A stretch of 59,684 bases of DNA from Candidatus Omnitrophota bacterium (lineage in GTDB: Bacteria; Omnitrophota; Gorgyraeia; Gygaellales; Profunditerraquicolaceae), in NCBI GenBank assembly GCA_028717885.1, contig JAQUMX010000007.1:1-59684 (forward strand), given 5' to 3'. Within the stretch, counting starts at the first letter, position 1. Each line of letters begins with the position of its first letter. The notes beneath the pieces are model-generated. The model ran no database searches and was not told the origin of the DNA. It was given only the letters and a program-made list of their open reading frames with translations. This document shows positions 9,016 to 57,502 of this stretch, piece by piece. The position numbers were made by a program, and so were the translations under genes.

Positions 9016-9147
9016 AATAAGCACATGACTTACGAACACGTAAGCGCGAGTAAGTCATTGTGCGAATTAATCCCCACGCCAATTTGCGTGGGGACAAATT
9101 CAGCCACAGGCTTACGTTCACTTTGTTCCGTAAGCCTAGGCTTTATT
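9016..9147. repeat. Multi-hairpin element, copy A (H1-H2-H3)
   Basis: TGACTTAC/GTAAGTCA, TCCCCACGC/GCGTGGGGA and AGGCTTACG/CGTAAGCCT, closed by AATAA/TTATT; homologous to copies at 18446, 51691 and 57156. Confidence 0.85.
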
Positions 9148-9150
9148 CGA

Positions 9151-9179
9151 ATTATATTACTTATTTGTTTTTTATGCAA
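9151..9179 (-). promoter_or_regulatory. Probable promoter of the GGDEF-MshEN-pilB-pilB-HD-GYP-pilC operon
   Basis: TTGCAT-17 bp-TAATAT on the minus strand; predicted start near 9144. Confidence 0.55.
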
Positions 9180-10917
9180 TGCTTTTATTATAATCATTAA
9201 GCAGGGCCTCTTTACTGACGCCGGAATCGATAAAATCCCAAGCCAATAATTCATTTTTTGATTTTTCTTTTAAAAAATCCTCTGGGGCGATTCCCGCCTC
9301 TTGAAAAGCTTCCATCCAGCGCGCAAAATTAAAATGTTCCTGCCAGCCGTCAAAACGCGCCCCCTTGCGAAAAGCTGATTCGATAACCTGGCTTAACCTG
9401 CGGTCGCCTCTGGCTATTACCCCCTCCAAGAAACTCGTTTCTGCATTATGGAAACTCAATTTTATTTTTTTATTCCGGTTGAGCTTGCGCAAGTATCCCT
9501 GCTTTTCTTTGATTTGCTCTATGCCTTCCATCCCGAACCATTGAAAAGCAGTGTGCGGCTTGGGGATCAAAGCATTTACACTTATATTTACCTGGGCATT
9601 AAACCCGCTTGTTTTTTTTCTTAACTGCGAAGCGTTATTGGCAAAATCCAAAATACTGCCTAAATCATCTTTTTCTTCTTTTGGCAGGCCGATCATAAAA
9701 TATAACTTCAAATGCTGATACCCTGCCTGATAAGCCTGTTCCAGGACGCGCAAAAACTCCGGAATATCAAAATCCTTATTCAGGACTTTGCGTAATTTTT
9801 CCGACGCTGCCTCAGGAGCAAAGGTTAAGCCGGTTTTTTTTATTTTAGAAATTAAAGACGCTAACTCTCCTACCATTTCACGCGGTTTTATCGAAGGCAA
9901 AGACACGCTTACCTTTTTTCCTTCGAACAAGGAAATTAAATTCCCCAGGATTTCTTTGATTTGCGGATGATCGCTGGCAGATAAACCGACGAGAGAAATT
10001 TCTTCATAGCCGGTATTTTGGTAAAGCTTGCAGGCTAAATCAGAGACTGCTTCCGTTTTTCTGATGCGAAACGGGGAATACAATGTGCGCGCCTGGCAAA
10101 AACGGCACTGATTAGGGCAGCCGCGCATAATTTCCAGGATCAGGCGGTCATGCACGACCTGGATAAAAGGAACCAGCCAATCCAAAGGAAAATATGACTG
10201 GTTAAGGTCTTTAACAGAGCGCTTCTTAACCACTGCTTTTAAATTGGCGTACTTTGGCTTAAATTCTTTTTGCTTGCCTTCCTGATCAAAAGAAACTGTA
10301 TAGAGCGAAGGCGCATAAACTCCTTCTATGCCGCAAAATTTTAAGAGAAATTCTTCTTTAGAGATTTTTCCCGCCTTAAAATCAGCGGCGTGGATTTTAT
10401 AAAGGCCGACGATTTCCTGAAGCGCTTCTTCAGCTTCTCCAATTACAAAGATGTCGATAAATTCATGCATTGGCTCCGGATTGAGCACACACGGCCCACC
10501 GGCAATCACTAAGGGAAAACTTGCATCGCGTAATGCGCTTTTTAAAGGAATGCCTCCCAGGTCCAAAAGATTCAAAACGTTAGTATAACTTAATTCATAT
10601 CCCAAAGAAAAGCCCACAAGATCGAATTCGCGCAAAGTTTTTTTAGACTCTAAGGAAAATAACTGGAGCTTGCCGCTACGCAACAACCCCTCCATGTCGA
10701 TAGCAGGAGAAAAGAATCTTTCACAAACAACCTGCGGCATTTGATTGAGAATGCCGTAGAGGATGCGGATTCCCAAATTACTCATCCCTACTTCATACAG
10801 GTCGGGAAAACAAAGCGCGAATTTTACCTCTGCCGCGTTAAAATCCTTATGCGAAATATTCCATTCTTCGCCGATATAGCGCGCCGGCTTTAATATTTGT
10901 AAAAGATAATCATCCAT
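9172..10917 (-). CDS. Radical SAM protein with B12-binding-like N-terminus (TIGR03960-like)
   Basis: FPDLYEVGMS N-terminus, CPNQCRFC motif, typical position after rodA; ATG overlaps the rodA TGA. Confidence 0.85.
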   Translation of the reverse strand: MDDYLLQILKPARYIGEEWNISHKDFNAAEVKFALCFPDLYEVGMSNLGIRILYGILNQMPQVVCERFFSPAIDMEGLLRSGKLQLFSLESKKTLREFDLVGFSLGYELSYTNVLNLLDLGGIPLKSALRDASFPLVIAGGPCVLNPEPMHEFIDIFVIGEAEEALQEIVGLYKIHAADFKAGKISKEEFLLKFCGIEGVYAPSLYTVSFDQEGKQKEFKPKYANLKAVVKKRSVKDLNQSYFPLDWLVPFIQVVHDRLILEIMRGCPNQCRFCQARTLYSPFRIRKTEAVSDLACKLYQNTGYEEISLVGLSASDHPQIKEILGNLISLFEGKKVSVSLPSIKPREMVGELASLISKIKKTGLTFAPEAASEKLRKVLNKDFDIPEFLRVLEQAYQAGYQHLKLYFMIGLPKEEKDDLGSILDFANNASQLRKKTSGFNAQVNISVNALIPKPHTAFQWFGMEGIEQIKEKQGYLRKLNRNKKIKLSFHNAETSFLEGVIARGDRRLSQVIESAFRKGARFDGWQEHFNFARWMEAFQEAGIAPEDFLKEKSKNELLAWDFIDSGVSKEALLNDYNKSIA

Positions 10918-12020
10918 CAAAATACCGACCTTTTCTTGGCGATATTCGCCAATATTCCTAATGCAATAAAAGTAGTAAATACCGATGATCCGCCGTAACT
11001 CATTAAAGGAAGCGGAATCCCCACCACCGGAGCCAACCCCAAATTCATGGCAATGTTAATAAAGACCTGTAAGCCCAACATAAGAGAAATCCCGAAAGCA
11101 AGCAGCCTGCCAAAATAATCGTGCGTATCCAAACCGATACGTATCCCCTCCCTGACTAAAGCACAGTATAATAATATCAGCGCGGAACTTCCGATTAATC
11201 CCCATTGCTCGGCAAAAGTAGCGAAGATAAAGTCCGTGTGTGATTCCGGCAAAAAATGCAATTGGCTCTGCGTGCCGGCAAGCCAGCCTTTTCCGAAAAT
11301 ACCCCCTGAACCAATGGCAATTTTTGATTGGATTACCGTATAGCCTGCGCCCAAAGGATCGACATTGGGGTTTAAAAATACCATTAGCCGGTCTTTCTGA
11401 TAGTCGTGCAAAAAATTCCAGAACAGCGGTAGCGAAATAAGCGCTATCGCCGCCAAGATCATGACATATTTCAATTTTATCCCCGCTAAATAAAGCATCG
11501 TGAGAAAAATCAATAAAACGACTATGGCGCTGCCTAAGTCAGGCTGCTCGATAATCAGCCCCATGGGAATAGCTACAAAAATAAACGGTAGGACGAATGC
11601 GCGTAGAATCCCGAATTTCGTCATCAGCAGAGAAACATCCCCGGAAGATTTTTTGCTGAAATATTTTGCCAAAAAAATTACCATCACGATCTTTGCCAAC
11701 TCAGTGGGCTGAAAATTAAACCAGCCAAACCTTAACCAGCGCTGCGCACCCAGCCTGATAGCCCCAAGCACAAAAACCAGGAAAAGCAAAAATACCACTA
11801 GCGCGTACAATAAATAAGAAGCGTCCCAAAGCCGGCGGTAATTAAAATTCGCCAGCAGAAAAAATAAAACTAAACCCAGAACCACCCAAAGAATTTGCCT
11901 GCGGTAAACCAGTTGCCAACCCGAGGCTTCCTTCTGATAGGTGCTGCTGTAAATCGACAAAATCCCGATCAAGGCAATTGTTAGTGCAACTATAATGATC
12001 AAAAATCCGCTTGCCTTCAT
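10917..12020 (-). CDS. rodA: Rod shape-determining SEDS protein RodA
   Basis: GAQRW, FQPTELAK, QPDLG, PESHTDFIF, LPLMSYGGSS; follows PBP2. Confidence 0.96.
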   Translation of the reverse strand: MKASGFLIIIVALTIALIGILSIYSSTYQKEASGWQLVYRRQILWVVLGLVLFFLLANFNYRRLWDASYLLYALVVFLLFLVFVLGAIRLGAQRWLRFGWFNFQPTELAKIVMVIFLAKYFSKKSSGDVSLLMTKFGILRAFVLPFIFVAIPMGLIIEQPDLGSAIVVLLIFLTMLYLAGIKLKYVMILAAIALISLPLFWNFLHDYQKDRLMVFLNPNVDPLGAGYTVIQSKIAIGSGGIFGKGWLAGTQSQLHFLPESHTDFIFATFAEQWGLIGSSALILLYCALVREGIRIGLDTHDYFGRLLAFGISLMLGLQVFINIAMNLGLAPVVGIPLPLMSYGGSSVFTTFIALGILANIAKKRSVF

Positions 12021-13732
12021 TAAACCAATCCTTGCTTAGACATTTCTTCGATAATCTGTTTGGCAACCATACAAGCACCATACCCTGAGCCGCCGTTTTC
12101 CAGAAAAACACAAATGGCAAATTTAGGATGATCAAAAGGGAAAAATCCACTAAACCATCCGTGCGGTTGCCCGCGCGTCACCTGAGCTGTTCCGGTTTTA
12201 CCCGCAACCGCCACGCTAAGGCCCGCTAAAACACTCGCCGTCCCCTGAGGATCAGCCACTACTTTTAGCTCTCCTTGCCGGATAGCATTAAGAAACCGCT
12301 CTTTAATCCCCAATGATTTATTCCCTTTTTGATACGCGGTAATATCCTGCCCGGCAATTGACTTGACGATATACGGATTAACTAAAAACCCGCGGTTTGC
12401 GAATACAGAAGCCATGCGTACAATTTGAATGGGTGTTGTCAACAAATCGCCTTGGCCGATGGAAAAATTTGCCGTATCTCCATCGTACCAGATCTGGGAG
12501 CGGGATGCTTTCTTCCAGCGCGGATGCGGTACAAACCCCGAAACTTCATAAGGCAAATCAATACCTGTGGGCTTGGAGAAACCAAACTTTAAAGAGTAAT
12601 CATGGATTAAGGGAGCGCCCAGCAAAATACCGGTGTGATAAAAAAAGACGTCGCAAGAATGGGCAATAGCCTGGATCAAATCCTGCTGGTTATGCGTATC
12701 CCAACACTTAAAATAGCGATTTCCGACCAGCATGCCGCCCGGGCAGTAAAAGCTCGTGCCTAAATTGATTTTACTTGTATCGAGCGCCGCTTCAGCCACT
12801 ACTAATTTAAATACCGAACCCGGAGCATAAGCCCCGGAGATCGCGCGGTTCATCAACACTGAATGAGAATTAGCAAAAATGTCCGCCAAAGAAGAGCCGG
12901 TTTTCTTGACAAAAACTTCCGGATTATACCCCGGCGAACTGGCGAGTGCGAAAATTTCTCCGCTAGCCGGGTCCATAATCACAACACTTCCTTTTCTTTC
13001 TCCAAGGCTACTTTCGGCAATTTTCTGGATCGCTAAATCCAGGGTGAGCTGGATATCTTTTCCGTTTTTTGCCGGCTTAAACCCTAAGGTACGCACAAAT
13101 CTTCCGCGATGGTCAACCTCTACGGAAAGCGCTCCCTCTTCTTCGCGTAAATAATAATCATATTTTTCTTCCACTCCGCCGTAACCGACAATATCCTTCG
13201 GATTATAGCCGTAATCTTGCAGCTTGCTTAGGCGCCACTGGTCAATCTCGCTTAAATAACCGGCTACGTGGCAGGCAAGTTTTCCGTAAGGATAGCTCCT
13301 TACCGGCCGCTGCTGTATCACTACGCCGGGATAATCCATTTTCAATTCTTCAAGAGCGACTGCCTTCTTGATATCGATATTTTTTGCCAAGGTAACCGGA
13401 ATAAAAGGGGCAGAGTAATTCTTACGGTAGGCTTTCTTTAATTCTGCCGGACTAATCCCCAATGTCCGTGCGATAATAGAAATTGCCTGGTCCAGCTCTT
13501 CTTTCTCCTCGGCAAGGACCATCACGTCAAAGGTAAGGTAATTATCTATAATCACCTGATTGTTACGGTCGAGGATCCTTCCCCGGGCACCGGGCTGCGC
13601 AAGTAAACGGATGTGGTTCTTTCGGCTTAGTCGGCTGAATTTATCATATTGTAAAACCTGCAGGTTGAAAAGCCCGCAGAATAAAAGCAGGAAAAGAACG
13701 CCTAAAAAAAATGTCGAGATTTTTATCCTCAT
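12020..13732 (-). CDS. mrdA: Penicillin-binding protein 2
   Basis: RGRILDRN, PGSVFK (SxxK), SCD, KTGTAQ; in mre operon. Confidence 0.95.
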   Translation of the reverse strand: MRIKISTFFLGVLFLLLFCGLFNLQVLQYDKFSRLSRKNHIRLLAQPGARGRILDRNNQVIIDNYLTFDVMVLAEEKEELDQAISIIARTLGISPAELKKAYRKNYSAPFIPVTLAKNIDIKKAVALEELKMDYPGVVIQQRPVRSYPYGKLACHVAGYLSEIDQWRLSKLQDYGYNPKDIVGYGGVEEKYDYYLREEEGALSVEVDHRGRFVRTLGFKPAKNGKDIQLTLDLAIQKIAESSLGERKGSVVIMDPASGEIFALASSPGYNPEVFVKKTGSSLADIFANSHSVLMNRAISGAYAPGSVFKLVVAEAALDTSKINLGTSFYCPGGMLVGNRYFKCWDTHNQQDLIQAIAHSCDVFFYHTGILLGAPLIHDYSLKFGFSKPTGIDLPYEVSGFVPHPRWKKASRSQIWYDGDTANFSIGQGDLLTTPIQIVRMASVFANRGFLVNPYIVKSIAGQDITAYQKGNKSLGIKERFLNAIRQGELKVVADPQGTASVLAGLSVAVAGKTGTAQVTRGQPHGWFSGFFPFDHPKFAICVFLENGGSGYGACMVAKQIIEEMSKQGLV

Positions 13733-14187
13733 CGTAAAACCTTAAAAATCAGAGGCGAAACTAATGCCGTATATAATGATTCAAGAATAATGACCTTTGA
13801 ATATACCCCTAAAGTAAAATAATTCCCTGCGGAAAATTGGAAAAATTTCTTTAATAAATCAATGAGGATAACTGCCAGAAAAATCAATACGGTACGCACA
13901 AGAGTGGTTTCGATGGGGATTTTCTTTGCCAAAAAAAACGTAACCGCCGCAAGAAAAGGAAAATAAAAAATGTGCGCCGCAAAAACTTGCGCGGTAAAAG
14001 CGTCTTTCAAGAACCCAAGCACCAGGCTAAAGAGCAAAGCATGCTTTAATTCAAAAACCAGCCCCACGAAAACTGCACAAATTAGCAACAGGTCAGGCTT
14101 AACGTTAAAAATGCGGAAATAATTTAAGAGGGTAGCCTGAAACAAAGCGAGCAAAACTATTACCAGGTAAAGCGTGCGCTTCTTCAT
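13729..14187 (-). CDS. mreD: Rod shape-determining protein MreD
   Basis: Hydrophobic, KPDLLL and GFLKD motifs, between mreC and mrdA. Confidence 0.88.
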   Translation of the reverse strand: MKKRTLYLVIVLLALFQATLLNYFRIFNVKPDLLLICAVFVGLVFELKHALLFSLVLGFLKDAFTAQVFAAHIFYFPFLAAVTFFLAKKIPIETTLVRTVLIFLAVILIDLLKKFFQFSAGNYFTLGVYSKVIILESLYTALVSPLIFKVLR

Positions 14188-14957
14188 GGAATAATTACCA
14201 GTACTTCTTCGATCGCGGATAAATCCGTAGCGGGTTTAATATTTGCGTAGCGGCTTAAACCGGAAAATTCCTCTCCCACCTCTACCACCGCGCCGATCAT
14301 CAACCCCTTCGGGTAAATGTCGGTGAGGCCGCTGGTAACGATGGTATCTGAAACCTGAATATCCGCGTCTTTGGGCAAATAGCGCATCACCAAAGTATTG
14401 CCGAGGGTGCCGCAAACCAGGCCTTCCTGGCGGCTGCGCTGATTAATGGCGGAAACGCTTAAAGCCGGGTCATTGATCAGCGCCACTTTACTGGTAGATT
14501 GGGAAACTTCGACTACACGGCCAAGTAAACCTAAATAACTGATCACCGCAAACCCGCGCTTGATCCCGGAATTGCTTCCTTTATCGAGGATCAAGGTCGA
14601 AGACCAATTGTCCGCCGAGTGGCCGATGACCTGCACAGGAATTACCCGATACGCGCTTTTCTGCTTAAAAGAGAGTAATTCCTTCAAGCGCTTATTTTCT
14701 AACTTGCACTCCTGCACGCTGTTAAGCCTGTTCTTCAATAACTCTACATCCTTAGTCAGGCGTTCATTCTCGGTATAATTTTGATGATAGAGCACGATCC
14801 CTTTGATCTCGCGGCCAATGGCTGTAGCAAAGTTAAGCGGTAATTTGAGCAGGTTAAGGGTAAAAGGCTTTAAGGCGGGGATAATGCTAAAAACAAGAAG
14901 CACCAATACTGCAACAACAATGAAAATGGTTAGATTCTTTTCGGCAAGCTTAAACAC
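14184..14957 (-). CDS. mreC: Rod shape-determining protein MreC
   Basis: TM, coiled coil (ENKRLKELL), IDKGS..G, GDTIVTSG-like motif. Confidence 0.93.
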   Translation of the reverse strand: MFKLAEKNLTIFIVVAVLVLLVFSIIPALKPFTLNLLKLPLNFATAIGREIKGIVLYHQNYTENERLTKDVELLKNRLNSVQECKLENKRLKELLSFKQKSAYRVIPVQVIGHSADNWSSTLILDKGSNSGIKRGFAVISYLGLLGRVVEVSQSTSKVALINDPALSVSAINQRSRQEGLVCGTLGNTLVMRYLPKDADIQVSDTIVTSGLTDIYPKGLMIGAVVEVGEEFSGLSRYANIKPATDLSAIEEVLVIIP

Positions 14958-14982
14958 ATTCTATTCTTGAATTGTGATAGTA

Positions 14983-16065: not shown

Positions 16066-16094
16066 GCCTTCTCCCAGCTGGGTAGGTAAAAGGG

Positions 16095-18435: not shown

Positions 18436-18445
18436 GTTTTATTTT

Positions 18446-18580
18446 AATGAGCGCATAACTTACGAACACTGCCTAGCGGCAGGGCAGGCGTAGTGTGAGT
18501 AAGTTATATGCGCGAATTAAATCCTTGACGCGTAAGCTTCAAATTCATATTAGTTGTCGGTTTCGCGTCAAGGATAAATC
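18446..18580. repeat. Multi-hairpin element, copy B (H1-H2)
   Basis: ATAACTTAC-GA-ACAC..GTGT-GA-GTAAGTTAT, linker GAATTAAA, TCCTTGACGCG/CGCGTCAAGGA. Confidence 0.85.
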
Positions 18581-18587: not shown

Positions 18588-19493
18588 CTATTTAAATATA
18601 ATTAAGAATTCTTGCGGGGTTTCCGAAGAAAAATCGATGAATTTATGCGTAGAGGGATGGATAAAACCCAGGTATTTCGCATGCAGGGCCAGGCGCGGAA
18701 AACTGTTATCTTTGCCATATTTGGTATCGCCTAAGATCGGGTGCCCCAAAAAAGACAAATGCACCCTTAATTGGTGGGTCCTGCCCGTAAAAGGCTCTAA
18801 CTCCAGCAAACTAATATCTTTGGTGCGCTTTAAAGTACGGTAGCGGGTCTTGGCGAATTTTGCCTCTTCGCTAAAACCGACTGCCATGCTTTTTCTTTTT
18901 ACCGGATGCCGCCCTATGGGCAGTTCAATCACATCTTCGTTGAATTTTACTTCTCCTTTAACCAGCGCCACGTATTTACGCAAAATACTATGCTCGGCAA
19001 ATTGTTTTGCCAGGTTAAGGTGAGCCGAATTATTTTTTGCTATTACCAGCAGCCCGGAAGTATCTTTATCCAAACGATGCACTATTCCCGGCCTCTGCGG
19101 ATTGATATCGGAGAGTTGCGTAAAACGATGCAACAGCGCGTTCACCAAAGTATGCGTATAATTCCCCGGCGCAGGATGTACGACCAAACCTATCGGCTTA
19201 TCGATGATTGCCAAATCCTTATCTTCGTAAACAACCGCCAAAGGAATGTCTTCCGCTTCGAGAGTATTTTCTTTTTTTTCTTCGATATGAAGGTGGATTT
19301 CGTCGCCGCTTTTAATTTTGTAATGCGCTTTAAGTTTGCCTGAATGCTTTAAAGAAACCGCGCCTTGCAGGATCAATTTTTGCAGCGACTGGCGGGATAG
19401 CCCTAAATCATTCTGACGGGAGTAATCTGCGAGAAAAACATCCAGGCGCTTGCCTGCGTCTTCGGGGAGGGCTACGAGAGAATATTCCTGCAT
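18588..19493 (-). CDS. rluD: RluA/RluD family pseudouridine synthase
   Basis: S4 domain, HRLDKDTSG, TGRTHQLRVH, GD..YG. Confidence 0.95.
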   Translation of the reverse strand: MQEYSLVALPEDAGKRLDVFLADYSRQNDLGLSRQSLQKLILQGAVSLKHSGKLKAHYKIKSGDEIHLHIEEKKENTLEAEDIPLAVVYEDKDLAIIDKPIGLVVHPAPGNYTHTLVNALLHRFTQLSDINPQRPGIVHRLDKDTSGLLVIAKNNSAHLNLAKQFAEHSILRKYVALVKGEVKFNEDVIELPIGRHPVKRKSMAVGFSEEAKFAKTRYRTLKRTKDISLLELEPFTGRTHQLRVHLSFLGHPILGDTKYGKDNSFPRLALHAKYLGFIHPSTHKFIDFSSETPQEFLIIFK

Positions 19494-20611: not shown

Positions 20612-20624
20612 CAAAAAGATTTAT

Positions 20625-20646
20625 CCCCACACCAATTGGTGTGGGG
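20625..20646. repeat. Perfect 22-bp palindrome CCCCACACCAATTGGTGTGGGG (isolated H2 module)
   Basis: Near-identical to H2 of copy A (9071-9095); lies between dksA and lspA. Confidence 0.9.
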
Positions 20647-20650
20647 GGAT

Positions 20651-51592: not shown

Positions 51593-51618
51593 CATCACAT
51601 CCCTCTAAAATGAATTAG

Positions 51619-51693
51619 TCGGGGCGAGTGGACTTGAACCACCGACCTCAGCGTCCCGAACGCTGCGCTCTAGCCAAACTGAGCCACGCCCCG
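51619..51693 (-). tRNA. tRNA-Pro (anticodon CGG), CCA not encoded
   Basis: CGGGGCG/CGCCCCG acceptor stem, D-loop AGTTTGGCTA, CAGCG-TTCGGGA-CGCTG, TTCAAGT T-loop; 3' flank is A-CTA. Confidence 0.97.
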
Positions 51694-51778
51694 TTTTGCA
51701 ATCATTTTTCTTCAGGCAAACGGATAAATTCGGCCAATAACTTACGTCGTTTTAAACTCCGTAAGTTATGGCCTGATT
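51691..51778 (-). repeat. Multi-hairpin element, copy D (H1-H2), in the tRNA-Pro leader
   Basis: GGCC-ATAACTTACG..CGTAAGTTAT-TGGCC, GAATTTA, CCGTTTGC/GCAAAACGG; the last arm overlaps the tRNA 5' end. Confidence 0.75.
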
Positions 51779-51779
51779 T

Positions 51780-51808
51780 ATTATATCAAAAATCGTGAAA
51801 ATTCGCAA
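51780..51808 (-). promoter_or_regulatory. tRNA-Pro promoter
   Basis: TTGCGA-17 bp-TATAAT. Confidence 0.7.
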
Positions 51809-51867
51809 TAAATTATGGCAGGAGGAAGTTTACATAATCTTATTATGGGTGGGAATAAAAGAAAGGA

Positions 51868-52080
51868 TTAACTAGCTCTCATCTCCATGCATACCCAACT
51901 TGGGCAATATCCGCGTTCACTCCATGAAGTACAGTTGCTTGCATCCAAGTTCGGTCCTGCTACATAAGTAGTAATATTCCCCTTGCACGTTGATAATATT
52001 CTTTCTGCTTCCTTGCCAAAGGGGCGCAATAATCTGATTAATTTTGGGGTATTCCAGTTTTTCTGCTTTTTTTCAGGCAT
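51868..52080 (-). CDS. Cys-rich small peptide P2 (putative RiPP precursor)
   Basis: QKNWNTPKLIRLLR...ERILSTCK, 4 Cys, ends C-x5-S. Confidence 0.78.
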   Translation of the reverse strand: MPEKKQKNWNTPKLIRLLRPFGKEAERILSTCKGNITTYVAGPNLDASNCTSWSERGYCPSWVCMEMRAS

Positions 52081-52103
52081 TTTTTGATATCCTGCAGCCT
52101 AAA

Positions 52104-52382
52104 TCAACTATAAGATAACGCAGCGCAAGCCCATGATACAGGCTGATCTACTGGGGGCGGACAATTCCAACCACCTCCTCCAGGAGGAGATCCTCCAGGA
52201 ACAATACAAGGCACAGTCAAGTATTTTACCACAGTACAGCCCCCATAAGTGCTAAAATCTCCGGGGCCATTGACGCCATCAGCCTTACAAAAATCCAATA
52301 CCCCGCCCGCAGAACTATCCCTAACTAAGATAAATATTTGCGGCTTCTGCCATTTTTTTCTTTGAACGTTTTTGATACTCAC
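52104..52382 (-). CDS. Cys-rich small peptide P3 (putative RiPP precursor)
   Basis: RKKWQKPQIFILVR...GGVLDFCK, 5 Cys, Pro/Gly-rich insert, ends C-x5-S. Confidence 0.78.
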   Translation of the reverse strand: MSIKNVQRKKWQKPQIFILVRDSSAGGVLDFCKADGVNGPGDFSTYGGCTVVKYLTVPCIVPGGSPPGGGGWNCPPPVDQPVSWACAALSYS

Positions 52383-52388
52383 AAACTT

Positions 52389-52416
52389 ATCATAATACTT
52401 GCAAAAATATTGTCAA
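52389..52416 (-). promoter_or_regulatory. Promoter of peptides P3-P2, probably leaderless
   Basis: TTGACA-16 bp-TATGAT; the -10 ends 7 nt before the GTG at 52382. Confidence 0.65.
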
Positions 52417-52423
52417 GCTGATT

Positions 52424-53002
52424 CTAAAACGGCTGGTTCCTTTTAGCGAGGATATCGAATTCCAAATTCACTTTATCGGAAGGCATTTTTGCTTTAAGGT
52501 TGGTGTTTTCCAGGGTATGCGGAATAATACAAACCGTAAAGGTATCGGCTTTTTTTTCAGCTATGGTCAGGCTTATGCCATCTATGGCAATTGCCCCTTT
52601 AGAAAGGCAATATTTAGCAAATTCCGAAGGGATCGCAATCTCAAAACAAGGATTATTCTGCCGGAAGGTTTTTTTACGGATCACCCCGACGCAATCGATG
52701 TGCCCGTAAACAAAATGCCCGGATAACCTATCGCCGATTTTTAAGCTGCGCTCAAGATTAACCTTATCTGCTGTTTTTAGCGCGGCTAGATTAGTTACTT
52801 TGAAAGTTCGCGGCATCACTTCGAAACTTAAAATATTTTTCGCTATCTTTACTACGGTAAGACAAACGCCATTTAAAGCAATACTATCCCCGATTTTAGT
52901 GCCATCCAATACTTTCTTTGCAGCAATCTCCAAAAGCACAATATTGGGCCGCCGCGAAATACCTTTTACAACTCCCAACTCTTCGATTATGCCGGTGAAC
53001 AT
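52424..53002 (-). CDS. ribE: Riboflavin synthase (alpha type)
   Basis: MFTGIIEE start, GDSIALNGVCLTV, VNLERS, GHFVYGH, VNLEFD. Confidence 0.97.
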   Translation of the reverse strand: MFTGIIEELGVVKGISRRPNIVLLEIAAKKVLDGTKIGDSIALNGVCLTVVKIAKNILSFEVMPRTFKVTNLAALKTADKVNLERSLKIGDRLSGHFVYGHIDCVGVIRKKTFRQNNPCFEIAIPSEFAKYCLSKGAIAIDGISLTIAEKKADTFTVCIIPHTLENTNLKAKMPSDKVNLEFDILAKRNQPF

Positions 53003-53003
53003 A

Positions 53004-54095
53004 TTATTTAACAAACCCCTCAATCAGAAAATCTTCGCCGAAATGTCGGAATGAAACATCTTTAAGCTTAATTGCATTATCGATGCGCGAAATCCCTTTC
53101 CCCATTACCGAAGAAATCGCATTTTTCCCTCCGATAATCTTCGGGCTAATAAAGAAAAGCACCTTATCCACTAGCCCTTCATCGAATAGTGCCCCGACCA
53201 AAGTCCCTCCTCCTTCAACAAGGATATTGGAGATCTCCAGCTGCGCCAGCTTCTTCATCATATTTTTTAAATTTACCTGCCCGGCCTTTTCTTTAACTTC
53301 CATAATTTTTGATTTTTGTGCCAGGATTTTCCGGTTTTCCGTTTCCTGCCCCGGGCGCGAAGGCAAAGTAGCGATAATTACCCGGCTATCCAAAGAAAAA
53401 ATATTCGCTTTTTGCGGAGTGCTTAATTGGCTATCCACCACGACTTTTATGGGTTGCCTGCGGGAAAACCAGGCGTTTAGCCGCGGGTTATCGCGTAAAA
53501 CCGTATTAATTCCCACCATGACCGCATCATAATCCTTACGGATTTTATGGGCAAAAGAACGCGATTTATCGGAAGTAATCCACTTAGAATCGCCGTTTTC
53601 CGTGGCAATCTTGCCGTCTAATGATTGCGCGATCTTTACCGTGACAAAAGGCATGCCCTTGGTAATATATTTAATAAAAGGCTGATTGATCTTTTTCAGG
53701 CGGTCTTCCAGGACACCGACTTCGACTTTAATTTTATTTTGCTTGAGCAAGTTGATGCCTTTACCGTTATTACGCGGATTCGGGTCAACCATGCCGACGA
53801 TAACTTGTTTGATCCCGCTTTTAATAATCCTGTCCACGCACGGCGGCGTACGGCCAAAATGCGCACAAGGCTCCAAGGTCACATAGAGTGTTGCATTCTT
53901 TGCATTATTGCCGGCTTCATCTAAAGCGATAACCTCTGCGTGTGCCAGGCCGGCTTTTTCATGATACCCCTTGCCGATAATTTTATTATTTTTTACTACC
54001 ACTGCCCCTACAAGCGGATTCGGAGAAGTTTCCCCTTTTGCCTTTAAAGCAAGCTTTATTGCCAGGCCCATATAATAATCGTGATCCTTTAGCAT
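53004..54095 (-). CDS. ribD: Bifunctional pyrimidine deaminase/reductase
   Basis: PNPLVG, HAE, LEPCAH.GRTPPC, SLDGKIA, LVEGG. Confidence 0.97.
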   Translation of the reverse strand: MLKDHDYYMGLAIKLALKAKGETSPNPLVGAVVVKNNKIIGKGYHEKAGLAHAEVIALDEAGNNAKNATLYVTLEPCAHFGRTPPCVDRIIKSGIKQVIVGMVDPNPRNNGKGINLLKQNKIKVEVGVLEDRLKKINQPFIKYITKGMPFVTVKIAQSLDGKIATENGDSKWITSDKSRSFAHKIRKDYDAVMVGINTVLRDNPRLNAWFSRRQPIKVVVDSQLSTPQKANIFSLDSRVIIATLPSRPGQETENRKILAQKSKIMEVKEKAGQVNLKNMMKKLAQLEISNILVEGGGTLVGALFDEGLVDKVLFFISPKIIGGKNAISSVMGKGISRIDNAIKLKDVSFRHFGEDFLIEGFVK

Positions 54096-54904
54096 TTTGC
54101 TTCCTTTAATTTTTCCACCAACTCATAAGGAATCTTGATTGAGCCAATCCGGACCTCCGGCTTGGCCTTGCCGTGGCAGTCAGAGCCTCCTGTAGCCACC
54201 AAATGATATTCTTTTGTAAGGTTTAAATAATAGTTACGCATCGATTGCGTATGCTCCGGGTAATAAACCTCTAACCCCATTATTCCCGCTTTAATATAAT
54301 CGAGGATAAGGCTATCATTATGGACACTGTAGGGATGCGCCAAAACAGGTATACCTCCTGCTGACTTAATCAAACCGATTGCCTGCTGCACGGAAAGCCT
54401 AAAACCCAATACATAAGCCGGGCATTTATCTCCGATATATTTATGAAAAGCTTCGAAAATACTGGAAACGATTTTTTCCTTTAGCATTGCCCTGGCTACA
54501 TGCAGCCTCCCTACTGTGCCGCCTCCGGAAATCTCAAATACCGATTCCGCATTCAAATCAATACCTATATTTTTAAGTTTCTCGGTAATTTTGTAAATCC
54601 GTTGGATACGGTTTTCCTTTAAGGAAGCCAATTGTTTAAGCAATGCGCTATTCCTATAATCAAGACAATAGCCTAAAACATGCACTTCCTGATTATCTTG
54701 CTCGGCAGTCAGCTCAATCCCCGGGACAACTTCCAAATCCACTGCCTTAGCAGCTTCTACGGCAGGGATAATTCCGCCTACGGTATCATGATCGACTACG
54801 GCAATAGTAGAAAGCCCCACACGGTGCGCTTCTTGAATCAGCTGGGAAGGAGTATAGGTACTGTCAGAGTAGGTAGTGTGCAGATGCAGGTCAGCATATC
54901 TCAT
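54089..54904 (-). CDS. PHP-domain phosphoesterase (TrpH/YciV-like)
   Basis: DLHLHTTYSD, DHD, GIELT, HVLGY, LAHP, GGSDCHG. Confidence 0.92.
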   Translation of the reverse strand: MRYADLHLHTTYSDSTYTPSQLIQEAHRVGLSTIAVVDHDTVGGIIPAVEAAKAVDLEVVPGIELTAEQDNQEVHVLGYCLDYRNSALLKQLASLKENRIQRIYKITEKLKNIGIDLNAESVFEISGGGTVGRLHVARAMLKEKIVSSIFEAFHKYIGDKCPAYVLGFRLSVQQAIGLIKSAGGIPVLAHPYSVHNDSLILDYIKAGIMGLEVYYPEHTQSMRNYYLNLTKEYHLVATGGSDCHGKAKPEVRIGSIKIPYELVEKLKEAKC

Positions 54905-54978
54905 CCTTCGCTCGTTTCATGTTTAGTTAATTTCTTTCGCTCAGGATGACCCTGAGCAGATTTTTGCGAATGGGTCAT
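54901..54978. repeat. Back-to-back hairpin doublet filling the nusB-PHP gap
   Basis: Minus strand TCATCCT-GA-GC..GC-GA-AGGATGA abuts plus strand TGACCCT-GA-GC..GC-GA-ATGGGTCA. Confidence 0.8.
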
Positions 54979-55395
54979 CTATTTTTTTATTTCTATCTTT
55001 ATCTTGTCCAATATACCATTCACGAATTTTCCCGCTTCTTTGCCGGAAAATTTCTTTGCCAGCTCCACCGCTTCGTTAATCGTTACTTTAGGCGGAATAT
55101 CGGGCCGGAAAGCCAGCTCAAAAACCCCCAGGCGCAGGATATTCCTGTCTACAAACGCCATGCGTTCTAATTGCCAATTAGTGGCGAATTGGGTGATTTT
55201 TTCATCGATCGCTGCCAGGTTATCTACCGTGCCCTTTACCAAATCAGCGCTAAATAGTTTCACCTCTTCCTCTATTTCTTCATCCGCTTTTGCCTGCCAG
55301 AATTTTTTTAAGACCTCTTCGCAGCCTTCATGGCAGATATCGATCTGGTAGAGGATTTGTAAAGCGAATTCCCGGGCAAGCGTGCGTTTTTTCAT
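54979..55395 (-). CDS. nusB: Transcription antitermination factor NusB
   Basis: R..ARE.ALQ.LY, W..ER...[22 protein letters not shown]. Confidence 0.97.
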
Positions 55396-55850
55396 ATTTT
55401 TTCGACTAAGTTCGCCATTTCAATTGCCGAAAGCGCGGCATCCCTGCCTTTATTACCGTCTTTTGTGCCGGCGCGCTCGATTGCCTGCTCGATAGTATCA
55501 GCAGTAATCACGCCAAAAATTACCGGTACGCCCGTATCCAAAGAAACCTTGGCAACCCCCTTGGAAACTTCCGCGGCAATATAATCAAAGTGAGGAGTAG
55601 CGCCTCTAATCACTGTGCCCAAACAAATTAAAGCATCGTATTTTGCCTTAGCTAATTTCAAAGCAATTGCAGGAATTTCGAAGGCGCCCGGAACCCAGGC
55701 AACGGTAATATCCTTATCGTCAATACCATGCCTAACTAACGTATCCTGGCAGCCTGAAACTAGGTCCTTGGTAATAAAATCATTGAAACGCGACGCAACA
55801 ATACCGATTTTTTTCCCTTTAGCGATCAGATCACCCTGAATAACCTTCAT
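55392..55850 (-). CDS. ribH: 6,7-dimethyl-8-ribityllumazine synthase
   Basis: [40 protein letters not shown]. Confidence 0.98.
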
Positions 55851-55868
55851 TATGCTGCTCCTTTCGTT

Positions 55869-57077
55869 TTATAATTCCAATTGGTGGCCGAGTTTTTCTT
55901 TTTTGGTTTTAAGGTAATGATAATTTTTCGGATTCGGCTGGGTTTCCAAAGGCACTCGCTCCACTACTTTTAAACCATAGCCTTCAAGACCAACGATCTT
56001 CCTTGGATTATTGGTGAGCAAACGGATATTTTTCAATCCCAAGTCAGCTAAAATCTGCGCGCCGATCCCATAATCGCGTAAATCCGCCTTATGCCCCAAG
56101 GCCTCGTTAGCTTCTACGGTATCCATCCCCTGGTCCTGCAAACTATAGGCGCGGATTTTATCAACCAGCCCGATACCACGCCCTTCCTGGTTCATATAAA
56201 GCACCACGCCTTTTTTTGCGCTACCGATAGCCTGCATGGCTTTTTCCAGCTGCCTTCCGCAGTCACAACGCAAAGAACCAAAAACGTCTCCGGTCAAACA
56301 CTCGGAATGCACGCGTACCAGCGTCGGTTGATTATCCAAATCGCCGATAGTAAGCGCGGTGTGCGCCTTATTATTAGTGAGGTCCCGGTAAACATGCAAA
56401 GTAAAATTCCCGGAATCAGTAGGAAGATTGGCTTGGGCGACTTTTTCAATTAATTTTTCCGAACGCCTGCGGAATTCTATCAGGTTGGCAATCGAACAAA
56501 TCTTTAAACCGTGGCTGCGGGAAAATCCCAATAATTCCGGCAGGCGGCTCATTGTTCCGTCGTCATTCATAATCTCGCAGATCACTCCCGCAGGATACAA
56601 ACCGGCAAGCTTCATTAAATCAATAGCTGCTTCAGTGTGCCCGCTACGCACCAAAACACCGCCGCGGCGCGCCTTGAGCGGAAAAATATGCCCCGGCCTG
56701 ATTAAATCCTCCGGCTTACTTTGCGGATTAATCAGGACTTCAATGGTTCTTGCCCGGTCAAAAGCAGAAATTCCGGTAGTAATACCCTTGGCTGCGTCAG
56801 TTGACATCATCCAGGCGGTAGCAAAGGGGTCCTCTTGGTTAATTTTAAGTTTATCCTTAAGCATTGGCTCTAAACTTAAATTTTTAAGGCGCTCTTCCTC
56901 CATCGGAACGCAAATCAGGCCCCTGCCATATTTAGCCATAAAATTGATCTCCTGCGGCTTAAGAAAGGCGGCGCTCATCACCAGGTCGCCTTCGTTTTCG
57001 CGGTCTTCATCATCAACCACAATCACCATCTTGCCGTTCTTCAGATCATCTAGGATTTCCGGAATAGAATTAAACAC
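55869..57077 (-). CDS. ribBA: DHBP synthase / GTP cyclohydrolase II
   Basis: DDEDRENEGD, GHIFPL, RVHSECLTGDVFGSLRCDCG, QEGRGIG, LLTNNP. Confidence 0.98.
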   Translation of the reverse strand: MFNSIPEILDDLKNGKMVIVVDDEDRENEGDLVMSAAFLKPQEINFMAKYGRGLICVPMEEERLKNLSLEPMLKDKLKINQEDPFATAWMMSTDAAKGITTGISAFDRARTIEVLINPQSKPEDLIRPGHIFPLKARRGGVLVRSGHTEAAIDLMKLAGLYPAGVICEIMNDDGTMSRLPELLGFSRSHGLKICSIANLIEFRRRSEKLIEKVAQANLPTDSGNFTLHVYRDLTNNKAHTALTIGDLDNQPTLVRVHSECLTGDVFGSLRCDCGRQLEKAMQAIGSAKKGVVLYMNQEGRGIGLVDKIRAYSLQDQGMDTVEANEALGHKADLRDYGIGAQILADLGLKNIRLLTNNPRKIVGLEGYGLKVVERVPLETQPNPKNYHYLKTKKEKLGHQLEL

Positions 57078-57088
57078 TAAAAACCTCC

Positions 57089-57122
57089 AAAAAAGAAAAA
57101 ACCCGAAGAAAAATCTTCGGGC
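57089..57122 (-). terminator. Riboswitch expression-platform terminator
   Basis: CCCGAAGA-N4-TCTTCGGG plus TTTTTTCTTTTTT; its 5' arm is complementary to the aptamer 5' P1 strand (AATCTTCGGG). Confidence 0.9.
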
Positions 57123-57131
57123 AAATAACCG

Positions 57132-57502
57132 TTAACCTTCTCCCATCTGGACTTTAATGAGCACTTGACTTATGGAGTCTTCAGACGACATAAGTCAATG
57201 AGCGAATTAAATCCTTAACATTTACCTTAATTTTTGAATTTAGGTAGATGTCAAGGATCAAATTCAGGCAACAATTTATGTTCACTTTGTTCCGTAAATT
57301 GTGCCTTCATTTGACCATCGGCTCTGGAATCTCACCAGCTCATGTCCGCCACGAACCGTGGCGGACTCGCGGGCTTTACACACGGCCATATGGCACCCCG
57401 CCATATTGGATTGGCGGGTGCGCCGCTTACTGCGGCGATTGGTCGGTGTGCGCATCTAGCGCGACCGCCGGTCGAGGAATTTCACCTCTCCCCGAAGATT
57501 AA
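57132..57502 (-). ncRNA. FMN riboswitch aptamer, expanded to about 370 nt by insertions
   Basis: TCTTCGGGG..GGTGAAATTCC..GACCGGCGGT, AAAGCCCGCGAG, CTGGTGAGATTCCAGAGCCGATGGT, AAGTCCAGATGGGAGAAG in order; P1 TTAATCTTC/GAAGGTTAA; upstream of ribBA. Confidence 0.93.
57156..57311. repeat. Multi-hairpin element, copy C (H1-H2-H3), inside the riboswitch P6 loop
   Basis: TGACTTATG/CATAAGTCA, GAATTAAA-TCCTT../..AAGGA-..AATTC, H3 loop TTCACTTTGTTC identical to copy A. Confidence 0.88.

What the first reader, a model, noticed from the sequence alone, without database searches (positions are those of the whole stretch)
9016..57311. Modular, covarying multi-hairpin repeat family (copies at 9016, 18446, 51691, 57156; lone module at 20625)
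Seen: the shared layout is AAT(A/G)A-GC..T(G/A)ACTTA(C/T)..(G/A)TAAGT(C/T)A..GC [H1], GAATT(A/T)A-TCC..GGA..AA(T)TC [H2], optional H3 with loop TTCACTTTGTTC, then T(T/C)ATT. Stems covary (TGACTTAC/GTAAGTCA, TAACTTAC/GTAAGTTA, TGACTTAT/ATAAGTCA), while loops and H2 interiors are unrelated and appear swapped. Copies occur in both orientations and in four contexts: operon leader, intergenic, tRNA leader, riboswitch loop. Inference: structure rather than sequence is maintained, which fits a non-autonomous ssDNA/RNA-structured mobile element (REP/MITE-like) or an unnamed RNA motif that exchanges modules. No cognate transposase is in the window.
Basis: partly seen in the sequence, partly recalled or inferred. 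Interest (0 to 1): 0.75.

Follow-up and report, generated by a model that had tools for sequence, protein, structure and literature searches.

The report
Omnitrophota gene-boundary hairpin repeat family
The four copies belong to an apparently undescribed family of hairpin-forming DNA repeats, found in about 60% of Candidatus Omnitrophota genomes sampled, that comes and goes between close relatives and sits between one gene's stop codon and the next gene's ribosome-binding site, always facing the same way.

Summary

**Structure**
- The basic unit is a ~62-nt hairpin module (P0-GA/GA-P1-bulge-P2-GA/GA-P3-loop).
- Covariation is almost purely Watson-Crick: 97-99% paired in 148 modules, with 13 of 16 pairs changed on both sides.
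A full element is therefore module A + central hairpin H2 + inverted module B or C. Solo, tandem and lone-H2 forms also occur.

**Distribution**
- The genome holds about 20 elements.
- 177 of 301 Omnitrophota genomes sampled hold matches.
- There is no match in Rfam 15, phage or plasmid records, IMG/VR or the searched literature.

**Mobility**
- Orthologous sites are filled or empty, even within one genus.
- One genome has six ~95%-identical copies.
- One window copy splits the P6 loop of the FMN riboswitch, which is uninterrupted at that loop in the ten relatives read.

**Placement is polar**
- The B end overlaps the upstream stop codon.
- The A end lies flush against the SD or AUG (63 vs 9).
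- Orientation follows the gene, not replication.

**Unresolved**
- No transposase was identified. Y1/RAYT genes are not adjacent and associate only weakly.

**Best reading**
This is a REP/REPIN-like non-autonomous element recognised as folded DNA and co-transcribed in mRNAs. An RNA-level role remains open.

The parts
9013..9150 (+). Full element: A module (9013-9074, +), central hairpin H2 (about 9063-9101) and inverted C-type module (9091-9150, -). It fills the spacer between the radical-SAM gene (stop at 9172) and the GGDEF gene (start at 9001). On the mRNA (minus) strand the SD is flush with the A end: GTGCTTATTAAG|GGGAG.
   Evidence: R1 scores 73.1 bits (+) and 42 bits (-). Three-hairpin fold with z = -8 to -11. 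Flanking genes.
18443..18580 (+). Solo element: A module (18443-18524) carrying a 20-nt extra apical hairpin, plus a CCTTGAC-type H2 (18521-18575). It lies 12 nt downstream (in mRNA sense) of the pseudouridine synthase stop (18588-18590). It lies 80 nt upstream of the next gene's start (18362), and a promoter-like TTGATT-16-TATAGT sits in between.
   Evidence: R1 67.2 bits. Fold z = -6 to -7.7. Sequence; ORFs.
51695..51781 (-). Solo B-like module (51722-51781, -) plus a weak downstream hairpin, in sense orientation in the leader of tRNA-Pro(CGG) (51618-51693, -). A TTGCGA-17-TATAAT promoter (51780-51808, -) overlaps the module's outer arm.
   Evidence: R1 67.1 bits. tRNA. Sequence. Fold z = -5.3.
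57153..57314 (+). Full element: A module (57153-57214, +), H2 (about 57203-57266) and inverted C-type module (57255-57314, -). It is inserted in the P6 loop of the FMN riboswitch.
   Evidence: R1 71 and 47.9 bits. RF00050 alignment is split at P6. Empty P6 loops in relatives read GATGGTAAAGTCC and similar.
57129..57503 (-). FMN riboswitch (RFN) upstream of ribBA (55869-57077, -), interrupted by the element. Its promoter TTGACA-17-TATAAT lies at 57508-57536 (-). Its terminator CCCGAAG..CTTCGGG plus T-run lies at about 57089-57121 (-).
   Evidence: RF00050 scores 34-39 bits here, against 52-117 bits in 37 relatives. ribBA domains. Sequence.
20621..20650 (.). Lone H2-type hairpin (ATCCCCACACCAATTGGTGTGGGGGGAT) between the dksA-like gene and lspA. 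It carries the same CCAATTGG-loop hairpin as the central hairpin of three full elements.
   Evidence: gene families.

Best explanation
The copies belong to a family of non-autonomous, mobile, hairpin-forming repeats found in about 60% of the Candidatus Omnitrophota genomes sampled. The family resembles REP/REPIN elements.

**Anatomy (shown)**
- The unit is a ~62-nt module that folds into one long hairpin.
- Reading inward: basal helix P0, tandem G.A/A.G loop, 4-bp P1, a 1-2-nt bulge, 9-bp P2 with an invariant AACTTA/TAAGTT core, a second G.A tandem, a short P3, and a GNA/GNNA loop.
- A full element is an A-type module, a variable central hairpin (H2), and an inverted B- or C-type module.
- Solo A+H2 or B+H2 units, tandem arrays and lone H2 hairpins also occur.

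**Mobility (shown)**
- The family is gained and lost on within-genus timescales and amplifies within genomes.

**Placement (shown)**
- Elements sit exactly at gene boundaries in one polarity relative to the genes.
- The B/C end overlaps the upstream gene's stop codon.
- The A end lies flush against the next gene's Shine-Dalgarno sequence or start codon.
- Elements therefore lie within operons or 5' leaders, so they should be co-transcribed. This was not measured.

**Mechanism (inferred)**
- The modules are recognised as folded single-stranded DNA by an unidentified enzyme acting in trans.
- The fixed polarity comes from target choice near stop/SD sequences, from selection on the mRNA, or from both.

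**Not known**
- The enzyme, the exact junction rule (target duplication or not), and any benefit to the host.
For: **Family and structure**
- The genome gives 18 nhmmer hits and 28-32 CM hits. The 'H3' hairpins hit the same model on the opposite strand.
- Covariation is strong.
- P0 covaries between subtypes: TTAAAT/ATTTAT, CTCAAT/ATTGAT, ATAAGT/ACTTAT, TCAAAT/ATTTGA.

**DNA-level signature**
- In helices P0-P2 of 226 modules only about 1.5% of pairs are wobble-like. There are 15 G.T and 32 A.C pairs, against about 3960 Watson-Crick pairs.
- The G.A tandems and the G..A loops lie on each module's own forward strand, whichever way it is transcribed. GAA occurs 23 times and GATA 16 times, and 75 of 152 loops begin with G and end with A.
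- A modules are almost always antisense to the mRNA, yet they keep these features.

**Spread**
- Matches occur in 31 of 41 relatives, with 1-70 copies each.
- Matches occur in 177 of 301 Omnitrophota genomes and 129 of 207 genera.
- A scan of GTDB genomes hit almost only Omnitrophota records.

**Mobility**
- The P6 loop of the FMN riboswitch is filled only here. The ten relatives whose P6 could be read have no such element there (nine short loops of 4-5 nt, one ~36-nt unrelated hairpin), and 34 of 41 riboswitches score above the Rfam threshold.
- The groES-groEL spacer is filled in G000 and in degenerate form in G037, and in a further genome outside that sample (L066). It is empty in about 14 of the 17 genera where the spacer could be read.
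- The rpsJ stop codon carries five structurally different insertions among about 25 readable genera.
- Within genus g24 the rpsP junction is empty in 6 genomes and filled in 2, each with a different subtype.
- Within that genus copy number ranges from 0 to 14 or more.
- In G166 six loci carry a ~95%-identical unit of 92-95 nt with sharp boundaries.

**Polarity**
- All 9 full elements in G000 have the same orientation.
- The A end faces a gene start in 63 cases and a stop in 9. The B end overlaps the stop codon at module positions 2-4 in 10 of 11 cases.
- The SD starts 0-1 nt after the module, or the AUG follows within 0-3 nt.
- Orientation follows the gene even for minority-strand genes: 2 cases in G000 and 5 elsewhere.
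Against: - No transposase or recombinase is linked to the family.
- Y1_Tnp genes lie more than 1.5 kb from any module at 12 loci. They associate only weakly with presence of the element: odds ratio 2.6, p = 0.0013, not corrected for phylogeny. 25 element-bearing genomes lack them.
- No autonomous parent was seen. No inverted module pair encloses 0.7-3 kb, and there are no phage, plasmid or IMG/VR matches.
- No clear target-site duplication could be defined, because P0 uses the terminal bases.
- Such strong sequence conservation across a phylum is unusual for a selfish MITE. So are the strict polarity and the flush position against translation signals. Both fit a host function.
- In A modules A.C mismatches outnumber G.T mismatches (27 vs 10). 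These would be G.U pairs on the mRNA strand, so this could mean selection on the RNA.
Confidence: 0.6

Rival explanations
1. The element is primarily a host-selected RNA element that marks gene boundaries. Transcribed within operons and leaders, its hairpins would do one or more of three things. They could be cut by an RNase such as RNase III at the base of the A hairpin, giving mRNAs that start at the SD or at the AUG. They could protect mRNA ends. They could insulate the ribosome-binding site from upstream sequence. Copies would then spread because they are useful.
For: - Polarity is strict and follows the gene rather than replication.
- The module ends 0-1 nt before the SD, or 0-3 nt before an AUG that has no SD.
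- Elements are enriched before highly expressed genes. 13 of 72 downstream genes are ribosomal or translation genes. Ten of these were confirmed by Pfam and three were recognised from their N-terminal sequence. GroEL, trigger factor, ClpP, enolase and SpoVG also appear, identified from N-termini only.
- The sequence is conserved across the phylum.
- A.C mismatches outnumber G.T mismatches in A modules, which would be G.U on the mRNA strand.
Against: - Position is not conserved between genera or within a genus.
- G.U pairs are almost absent, at about 1%.
- The conserved G.A tandems and G..A loops of A modules lie on the strand that is not in the mRNA.
- The mRNA would carry two different hairpin versions: GA-type for B/C and UC-type for A.
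- Some copies are sense-oriented A modules (C43, the G010 rpsJ site). One lies inside a riboswitch loop, where a gene-boundary role makes no sense.
Confidence: 0.25
2. Copies spread without a dedicated transposase. Spread would occur by short-homology recombination or template switching, anchored on sequences that every gene boundary shares: the TAA-containing stop region and the AAAGGAGG ribosome-binding site. The native spacer would be replaced by a copy of the element.
For: - In G166 the amplified unit runs to and includes AAAGGAG.
- Junctions show 5-6 nt of identity between the element end and host sequence. At rpsJ the P0 arm is made of the last S10 codons: ATTAAA|TGAGGAC in G000 and ATTAAG|TGAGGCC in L244.
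- Chimeric junctions with tRNA D-arm sequence GCTCAAT..GAGCAC occur in C43 and L018.
- This would explain the polarity and the lack of a TSD or transposase.
Against: - Five to eight nucleotides of homology is very short for efficient recombination.
- About a third of the A ends next to a gene start abut an AUG with no SD.
- Insertion in the FMN P6 loop has neither anchor.
- It does not explain why hairpin pairing and the G.A tandems are conserved.
Confidence: 0.1
3. The modules are double-stranded DNA binding sites, either operators or nucleoid/gyrase sites for a dimeric protein, or promoter elements. They would not be folded nucleic acid.
For: - The AACTTA/TAAGTT core is invariant and palindromic.
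- TTGACA-like motifs occur in many H2 stems.
Against: - Most stem positions vary freely while staying complementary. This is expected for base pairing, not for protein read-out of duplex DNA.
- Apical length varies from 15 to 60 nt, so no fixed half-site or -35/-10 spacing exists.
- Promoter-like hexamers are not consistently placed, by my own inspection.
Confidence: 0.05

Closest known systems
REP / BIME / REPIN elements (Enterobacteria, Pseudomonas) mobilised by RAYT (Y1 HUH) transposases
   Same: - Intergenic imperfect palindromes with compensatory changes.
- They occur as singlets, inverted doublets around a spacer (REPIN-like) and clusters.
- They number tens per genome, are co-transcribed with operons, and have no coding capacity.
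   Different: - The module is about twice as long (62 nt) and has two tandem G.A loops.
- There is no GTAG head.
- No RAYT gene is flanked by it. The RAYT-like gene of this genome is flanked by another palindrome, GGGGACGTTCCCC.
- One consensus is conserved across a whole phylum instead of a genus.
- Polarity is strict and placement is flush against stop codon and SD/AUG, rather than at 3' ends of operons.
Transcribed MITEs: ERIC/IRU (Enterobacteria, Yersinia), Correia/NEMIS (Neisseria), BOX and RUP (Streptococcus pneumoniae)
   Same: - Elements of 100-200 bp with terminal inverted repeats that fold into long hairpins in mRNA.
- BOX has a modular build (boxA-B-C).
- Insertion occurs in transcribed intergenic regions, with known orientation-dependent effects on mRNA processing or stability. 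This rests on my knowledge of the literature and was not tested here.
   Different: - Those families are limited to a genus or species.
- They have a TA target duplication (ERIC, Correia, RUP) or known IS relatives.
- Each terminal repeat is not itself a conserved, covarying hairpin.
- They show no reported flush placement against stop codon and SD.
IS200/IS605-family ends and their non-autonomous derivatives (PATEs)
   Same: - Recognition of folded single-stranded DNA hairpins with unpaired bases.
- No target duplication.
- Target or cleavage sequence is read by pairing with an internal guide. This would resemble the P0 helix, formed between flanking host-like bases and the internal GAATTAA/GAACTTA segment.
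   Different: - IS200/IS605 ends are not inverted repeats of each other.
- Their orientation is tied to the replication strand, whereas this family follows the gene.
- No TnpA gene is linked to the modules.
Integron attC sites
   Same: Structure rather than sequence is conserved. They are recombined as folded single strands, with unpaired bases that mark the strand. They lie at gene ends.
   Different: - There is no RYYYAAC...GTTRRRY core.
- The modules are not in cassette arrays next to an integrase.
- The flanking genes are core housekeeping genes.

Membership tests
REP/REPIN (RAYT-associated) | Repeated intergenic imperfect palindrome occurring as singlets, inverted doublets and clusters | tested here: met
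   Solo, inverted-pair and tandem forms were all found. There are about 20 elements in G000 and up to 70 module hits per genome in relatives.
REP/REPIN (RAYT-associated) | Conserved GTAG-type head next to a 20-40-nt palindrome | tested here: not met
   The module is 62 nt and begins T(T/A)(T/A)AATGAG. No GTAG is present.
REP/REPIN (RAYT-associated) | Cognate RAYT (Y1_Tnp) gene flanked by the repeats and co-occurring with them | tested here: not met
   No R1 hit lies within 1.5 kb of 12 Y1 genes. G000's two Y1 genes have no module nearby, and the gene on C21 is flanked by GGGGACGTTCCCC. Co-occurrence is weak: odds ratio 2.6, and 25 genomes have modules but no Y1 gene.
DDE-type MITE | Terminal inverted repeats | tested here: met
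   The A module and the inverted B/C module match one model on opposite strands. The outer ends pair in the DNA fold of 9013-9150.
DDE-type MITE | Target-site duplication of fixed length | tested here: inconclusive
   TAA...TAA direct repeats flank several full elements. However, these bases are part of the covarying P0 helix. Same-genus empty sites are too diverged to fix the junction.
DDE-type MITE | Autonomous IS with the same ends | tested here: not met
   No inverted module pair encloses 0.7-3 kb in G000 or in the 118 loci. There are no matches in phages, plasmids or IMG/VR. DDE families themselves were not searched.
IS200/IS605-derived element | Orientation tied to the replication strand (lagging-strand template) | tested here: not met
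   Modules next to minority-strand genes keep their orientation relative to the gene: rpsT and cspA in G000, and 5 of 67 elsewhere.
Cis-regulatory structured RNA (Rfam-type motif) | Match to a described family | tested here: not met
   Rfam 15 gathering and E-value scans found only rRNA, tRNA and the split FMN riboswitch.
Cis-regulatory structured RNA (Rfam-type motif) | Conserved position before orthologous genes | tested here: not met
   groES-groEL is filled in G000 and, in degenerate form, G037, out of 17 genera whose spacer could be read. rpsJ-rplC is filled in 5 of about 25 readable genera. The rpsP junction is filled in 2 of 10 genomes of one genus.
Cis-regulatory structured RNA (Rfam-type motif) | Fixed orientation relative to the regulated gene, and covariation that includes G.U pairs | tested here: inconclusive
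   Orientation is fixed. Wobble pairs are about 1% or fewer, which is atypical for RNA.
Integron attC | RYYYAAC / GTTRRRY core sites, and cassette arrays beside intI | tested here: not met
   No such cores are seen in the alignments. The neighbours are housekeeping genes. intI itself was not searched.

The most novel reading that the evidence does not exclude
The element may be a guide-directed, strand-specific insertion system. It would differ from IS200/IS605, whose orientation follows the replication strand.

The proposal rests on the basal helix P0. This helix forms between 5-6 host-like bases at the insertion point (often the last sense codons and stop codon, or the A-rich stretch before SD/AUG) and an internal segment of the module (GAATTAA, GAATTTA, GAACTTA or GAATTGA). 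Under this reading each subtype would choose its target by base pairing, which would make the element a programmable single-strand DNA inserter.

Its products would in turn be used by the cell as standard intercistronic cassettes. These cassettes would set where mRNAs are cut and where ribosomes start, and would include genes whose AUG follows the hairpin with no SD.
Probability: 0.12. Interest if true: 0.85.

Novelty: new variant of a known kind. Interest (0 to 1): 0.62.

Why it matters
**An unrecorded feature of an uncultured phylum.** Omnitrophota are uncultured, mostly ultra-small bacteria with compact genomes. This is a structured repeat conserved across the phylum. It occupies many of their short intergenic spacers, including those in ribosomal-protein operons, groESL and a riboswitch. 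I found no record of it in Rfam or in the searched literature.

**Consequences if it is only selfish DNA.** It is a very widely conserved REP-like family. It points to an unknown enzyme that acts on folded DNA.

**Consequences if it also works in RNA.** It would be a general gene-boundary signal for mRNA processing or translation start in this phylum.

**Practical uses**
- The covariance model can mark these repeats in MAG annotation.
- It can prevent false 'novel riboswitch/leader' calls.
- It can explain assembly breaks and riboswitch models that fall below threshold.

Tried and rejected
**Promoter reading.** I looked for -35/-10 hexamers in H2 (TTGACA) and around TAAGTT in both orientations. 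Spacing is inconsistent and apical length varies, so I rejected this.

**RAYT/Y1 partner.** Rejected as a linked gene, for three reasons:
- the genes are not adjacent to modules;
- the genome's own RAYT-like gene has a different flanking palindrome;
- the co-occurrence is only weak.

**Simple 3-bp TAA duplication, as in IS5/Harbinger.** This was attractive at groES and rpsJ. However, the bases belong to the covarying P0 helix, and subtypes with TCA/TGA or no TAA exist. It stays unresolved.

**A 5-11-nt duplication around solo units in G166.** It shows only at the fusA and rpsP copies and not at the others.

**Replication-strand insertion bias.** Rejected.

**K-turn.** The tandem G.A loops are symmetric with no 3-nt bulge, so they are not a K-turn. 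This is my reading.

**Resemblance of GCGCATAA to the XerC arm of dif.** These positions vary freely, so I judged it coincidence.

**Searches that gave nothing**
- Exact-protein look-up of RibBA for near-identical strains.
- Literature searches for Omnitrophota repeats or RNA motifs found nothing relevant.

**Not attempted.** DDE transposase, GIY-YIG and tyrosine-recombinase families were not searched across genomes.

Full report
**1. What is there**

The four copies are at 9013-9150 (+), 18443-18580 (+), 51695-51781 (-) and 57153-57314 (+). A lone GC-rich hairpin lies at 20621-20650.

The window is contig C7 of a 1.47-Mb, 66-contig assembly with 43.7% G+C. A profile built from the first hairpin plus its junction finds 18 copies in this genome. 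A covariance model R1 (61 positions, 16 pairs) finds 28-32.

The key result is that every 'H3' hairpin matches R1 on the opposite strand. A full element is therefore module + central hairpin H2 + inverted module. Shorter copies are a single module plus H2.

**2. Anatomy of the module**

Alignment of 17 modules from this genome and 150 from other genomes shows one long hairpin:
- P0, 5-6 bp (TTTAAT/ATTAAA);
- a tandem G.A/A.G loop;
- P1 (GCAC/GTGC);
- a 1-2-nt bulge on the 3' side;
- P2 (ATAACTTAC/GTAAGTTAT), with AACTTA/TAAGTT invariant;
- a second tandem (G)GA/GA(C);
- a short P3;
- a small loop.

Pairing and covariation:
- In this genome 92% of cells are paired and 10 of 17 pairs change on both sides.
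- In 148 distinct modules helices 1-2 are 97.5-98.8% paired and 13 of 16 pairs change on both sides. No shuffle reaches the covariation score, and slid controls collapse to 16-33% paired.
- P0 also covaries between subtypes: TTAAAT/ATTTAT, CTCAAT/ATTGAT, ATAAGT/ACTTAT, TCAAAT/ATTTGA.

Pairing is almost purely Watson-Crick. In 226 parsed modules G.T plus A.C pairs are about 1.5% of P0-P2 pairs.

Of the 152 apical loops that could be defined, 125 are 3-4 nt long. About half of the 152 begin with G and end with A, for example GAA (23) and GATA (16). Many are not GNRA.

Three end subtypes recur:
- A: GAGCRC...GYGCGAATT
- B: TAAGTGAGGNC...GNCCGAACTTA
- C: TCAAATGAAGNC...GNCTGAATTTGA

Full elements pair an A module with an inverted B or C module.

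All window copies fold as predicted on both strands, as RNA or DNA, with z-scores of -5 to -11.

**3. Not a known family**

- Rfam 15 reports only 16S rRNA and tRNA-Pro at gathering thresholds.
- E-value scans over three copies give only noise, plus the split FMN riboswitch.
- There are no matches in phage or plasmid records or in IMG/VR.
- Four literature searches found no description.
- Earlier notes of this scan describe the same family in other Omnitrophota genomes. I treated those as leads only.

**4. Who has it**

Nearly all are labelled Candidatus Omnitrophota.
- R1 finds the module in 31 of 41 relatives, each but two a different genus, with 1-70 matches.
- It finds the module in 177 of 301 genomes sampled across the phylum and in 129 of 207 genera, including other classes.
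- Within one genus (g24) counts run from 0 to at least 14.

**5. It moves**

(a) *FMN riboswitch.* The riboswitch before ribBA is present once in 38 of 41 relatives and is above the Rfam threshold in 34. Only in this genome is it split.
- Nine of the ten relatives whose P6 loop could be read have short loops such as GATGGTAAAGTCC or GATGGTAAAAGTCC. The tenth (L145) carries an unrelated ~36-nt hairpin in the loop.
- This genome has GATGG[TCAAATGAAGGCAC...162 nt...GTGCTCATTAAA]GTCC.

(b) *groES-groEL.* The spacer holds a full element here, a degenerate one in G037, and one in another genome (L066). In about 14 of the 17 genera whose spacer could be read it is a plain TAA-SD-ATG spacer. G022 and G010 carry unrelated repeats there.

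(c) *The rpsJ stop codon.* Five of about 25 readable genera carry an element, and the five differ in structure: solo B, three full elements, and a solo A in sense orientation. The native stop stays in register. Genomes with an identical S10 protein carry a different B subtype or unrelated hairpins.

(d) *Within genus g24.* The junction before rpsP is empty in six genomes (xxx TAA GAAAGGAG N6-8 ATG). It is filled in G166 with a solo A+H2 and in G308 with two tandem copies of another subtype.

(e) *Amplification in G166.* This genome has six loci with a ~95%-identical unit of 92-95 nt. Similarity starts at (AGA)TCCCGCC and ends at CTCATTTAAAGGAG. The loci lie before fusA, rpmE, rplS, rpsP and two other genes.

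**6. Placement is polar and exact**

- In this genome all 9 full elements read, in mRNA sense: stop codon, B/C module, H2, A module (reverse complement), SD, AUG.
- Over 150 modules from other genomes, the outer end of A modules faces a divergent gene start 63 times and a stop 9 times.
- The outer end of B modules overlaps the upstream stop codon, with TAA at module positions 2-4 in 10 of 11 cases.
- At A ends two classes appear. In about 27 cases the AUG follows CUCAUUAAA within 0-3 nt with no SD. In most of the roughly 40 SD-bearing cases the SD begins 0-1 nt after the module, sometimes using its last bases.
- These genomes have about 96% local gene-strand bias and a GC skew of about 0.1. 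Even so, modules next to minority-strand genes keep their orientation relative to the gene (rpsT and cspA here; 5 of 67 elsewhere). Polarity therefore follows the gene, not the replication fork.
- Downstream genes are rich in highly expressed functions. 13 of 72 are ribosomal or translation genes. Ten were confirmed by Pfam and three recognised from their N-termini. GroEL, trigger factor, ClpP, enolase, PFK and SpoVG also appear, identified from N-termini by my own reading.

**7. The enzyme is unknown**

- Y1_Tnp (RAYT/IS200-type) domains are common: 30 of 41 relatives and 239 of 301 in the phylum.
- No module lies within 1.5 kb of 12 such genes.
- The RAYT-like gene of this genome (C21:918-1574) is flanked by GGGGACGTTCCCC, a separate 9-copy repeat.
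- Co-occurrence is weak. The counts are 152 genomes with both, 25 with modules only, 87 with Y1 only and 37 with neither. The odds ratio is 2.6 and p = 0.0013, with no phylogenetic correction.
- No module pair encloses a gene-sized segment.

**8. How it most likely works**

Shown:
- a folded, covarying module family;
- gain and loss at orthologous sites, and recent amplification;
- fixed polarity and flush placement at stop and SD/AUG.

Inferred:
- *Recognition of folded single-stranded DNA.* Pairing is Watson-Crick only. The two ends are inverted copies. Each module keeps its G.A tandems and G..A loops on its own forward strand, even though A modules are almost always antisense to the mRNA.
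- *Transcription as part of mRNAs.* This follows from position inside operons and 5' leaders and was not measured.
- *Origin of the polarity.* It may come from target choice or from selection.

The junction rule is unresolved. TAA...TAA direct repeats flank several full elements, but they lie inside P0. At rpsJ the outer P0 arm is made of the last S10 codons, ATTAAA|TGAGGAC here and ATTAAG|TGAGGCC in L244. The internal partner differs to match in G000 (GAATTTA). In L244 the contig ends before the partner can be read. This fits either target choice by pairing or homology with the element, or short-homology recombination.

**9. Rivals**

- *An RNA-level gene-boundary function (0.25).* It explains the polarity, the flush SD/AUG placement, the enrichment before highly expressed genes, and the excess of A.C over G.T mismatches in A modules (27 vs 10). 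It is weakened by non-conserved positions, near-absence of wobble pairs, and conserved features on the untranscribed strand.
- *Transposase-free spread by short homology at stop/SD (0.1).*
- *A duplex-DNA protein site or promoter (0.05).*

The first two do not exclude the main reading.

**10. Limits**

- Gene calls outside the window come from my own ORF script.
- Counts from the genome search over more than 40 genomes use strict filters and capped candidate numbers, so copy numbers are lower bounds.
- The locus set was selected with an A-type pattern, so B and C modules are under-sampled.

Noticed in passing
G000 contig C21:878-1620 (not in the window); other copies at C10:3116, C13:26701, C21:11887, C22:8442, C23:15147, C25:13325, C40:795, C44:1961: A second, unrelated repeat, GGGGACGTTCCCCAA(A/G)G(G/T)NCCACCC, has 9 copies. 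One copy and its inverted partner flank a RAYT-like Y1 gene (HUH motif HLHLL). This looks like a classical REP/RAYT pair.
   Followed up: partly
window 57385-57470 (-): The FMN riboswitch also carries an ~88-nt expansion of the P3 loop with two GC-rich hairpins (CGCCGCAGTAAGCGGCG and CCCGCCAATCCAATATGGCGGG). It is unrelated to the module family. Riboswitch length in relatives varies from 113 to 250 nt.
   Followed up: partly
G000 contig C43:5330-5540; also locus L018:4830-5010 (another genome): An A module plus H2 is joined to the first 16-17 nt of tRNA-Arg(TCT) (GCGCCTGTAGCTCAAT|TTTAATGAGCAC), upstream of the intact tRNA. In G000 the 104-nt unit is duplicated in tandem. The tRNA D-arm (GCTCAAT..GAGCAC) resembles the module's left arm, which suggests a short-homology junction. 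L009 shows a similar partial copy of a tRNA 3' end.
   Followed up: partly
Phylum sample: Y1_Tnp-domain ORFs of 160-340 aa are present in 79% of the Omnitrophota genomes sampled, at 1-11 copies per genome. That is unusually common for genomes of 1-2.5 Mb.
   Followed up: partly
G000 all contigs; loci L013-L130: Gene-strand bias is extreme, at about 96% of coding sequence on one strand locally, with GC skew near 0.1.
   Followed up: no
L230 (G312), L232 (G285), L152 (G022), L171 (G010), L241, L243: The same stop/SD junctions (rpsP, groEL, rplC) hold other, unrelated hairpin-rich or repeated inserts in other genomes. Examples are GTGTAAGTTTTTAAG x2, GTGTCAAAGT repeats and GGGGACTGTCCCC palindromes. 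These junctions appear to be general hot spots for structured insertions.
   Followed up: no
window 51780-51808 (-) and 57508-57536 (-): Near-consensus sigma-70-type promoters are present: TTGCGA-17-TATAAT before tRNA-Pro and TTGACA-17-TATAAT before the FMN riboswitch. The first overlaps the outer arm of the module, so that arm may not be transcribed.
   Followed up: no
L083:3540-3670 (another genome): An A module directly abuts the 3' end of a tRNA gene, which takes the place where the central hairpin H2 normally stands.
   Followed up: no
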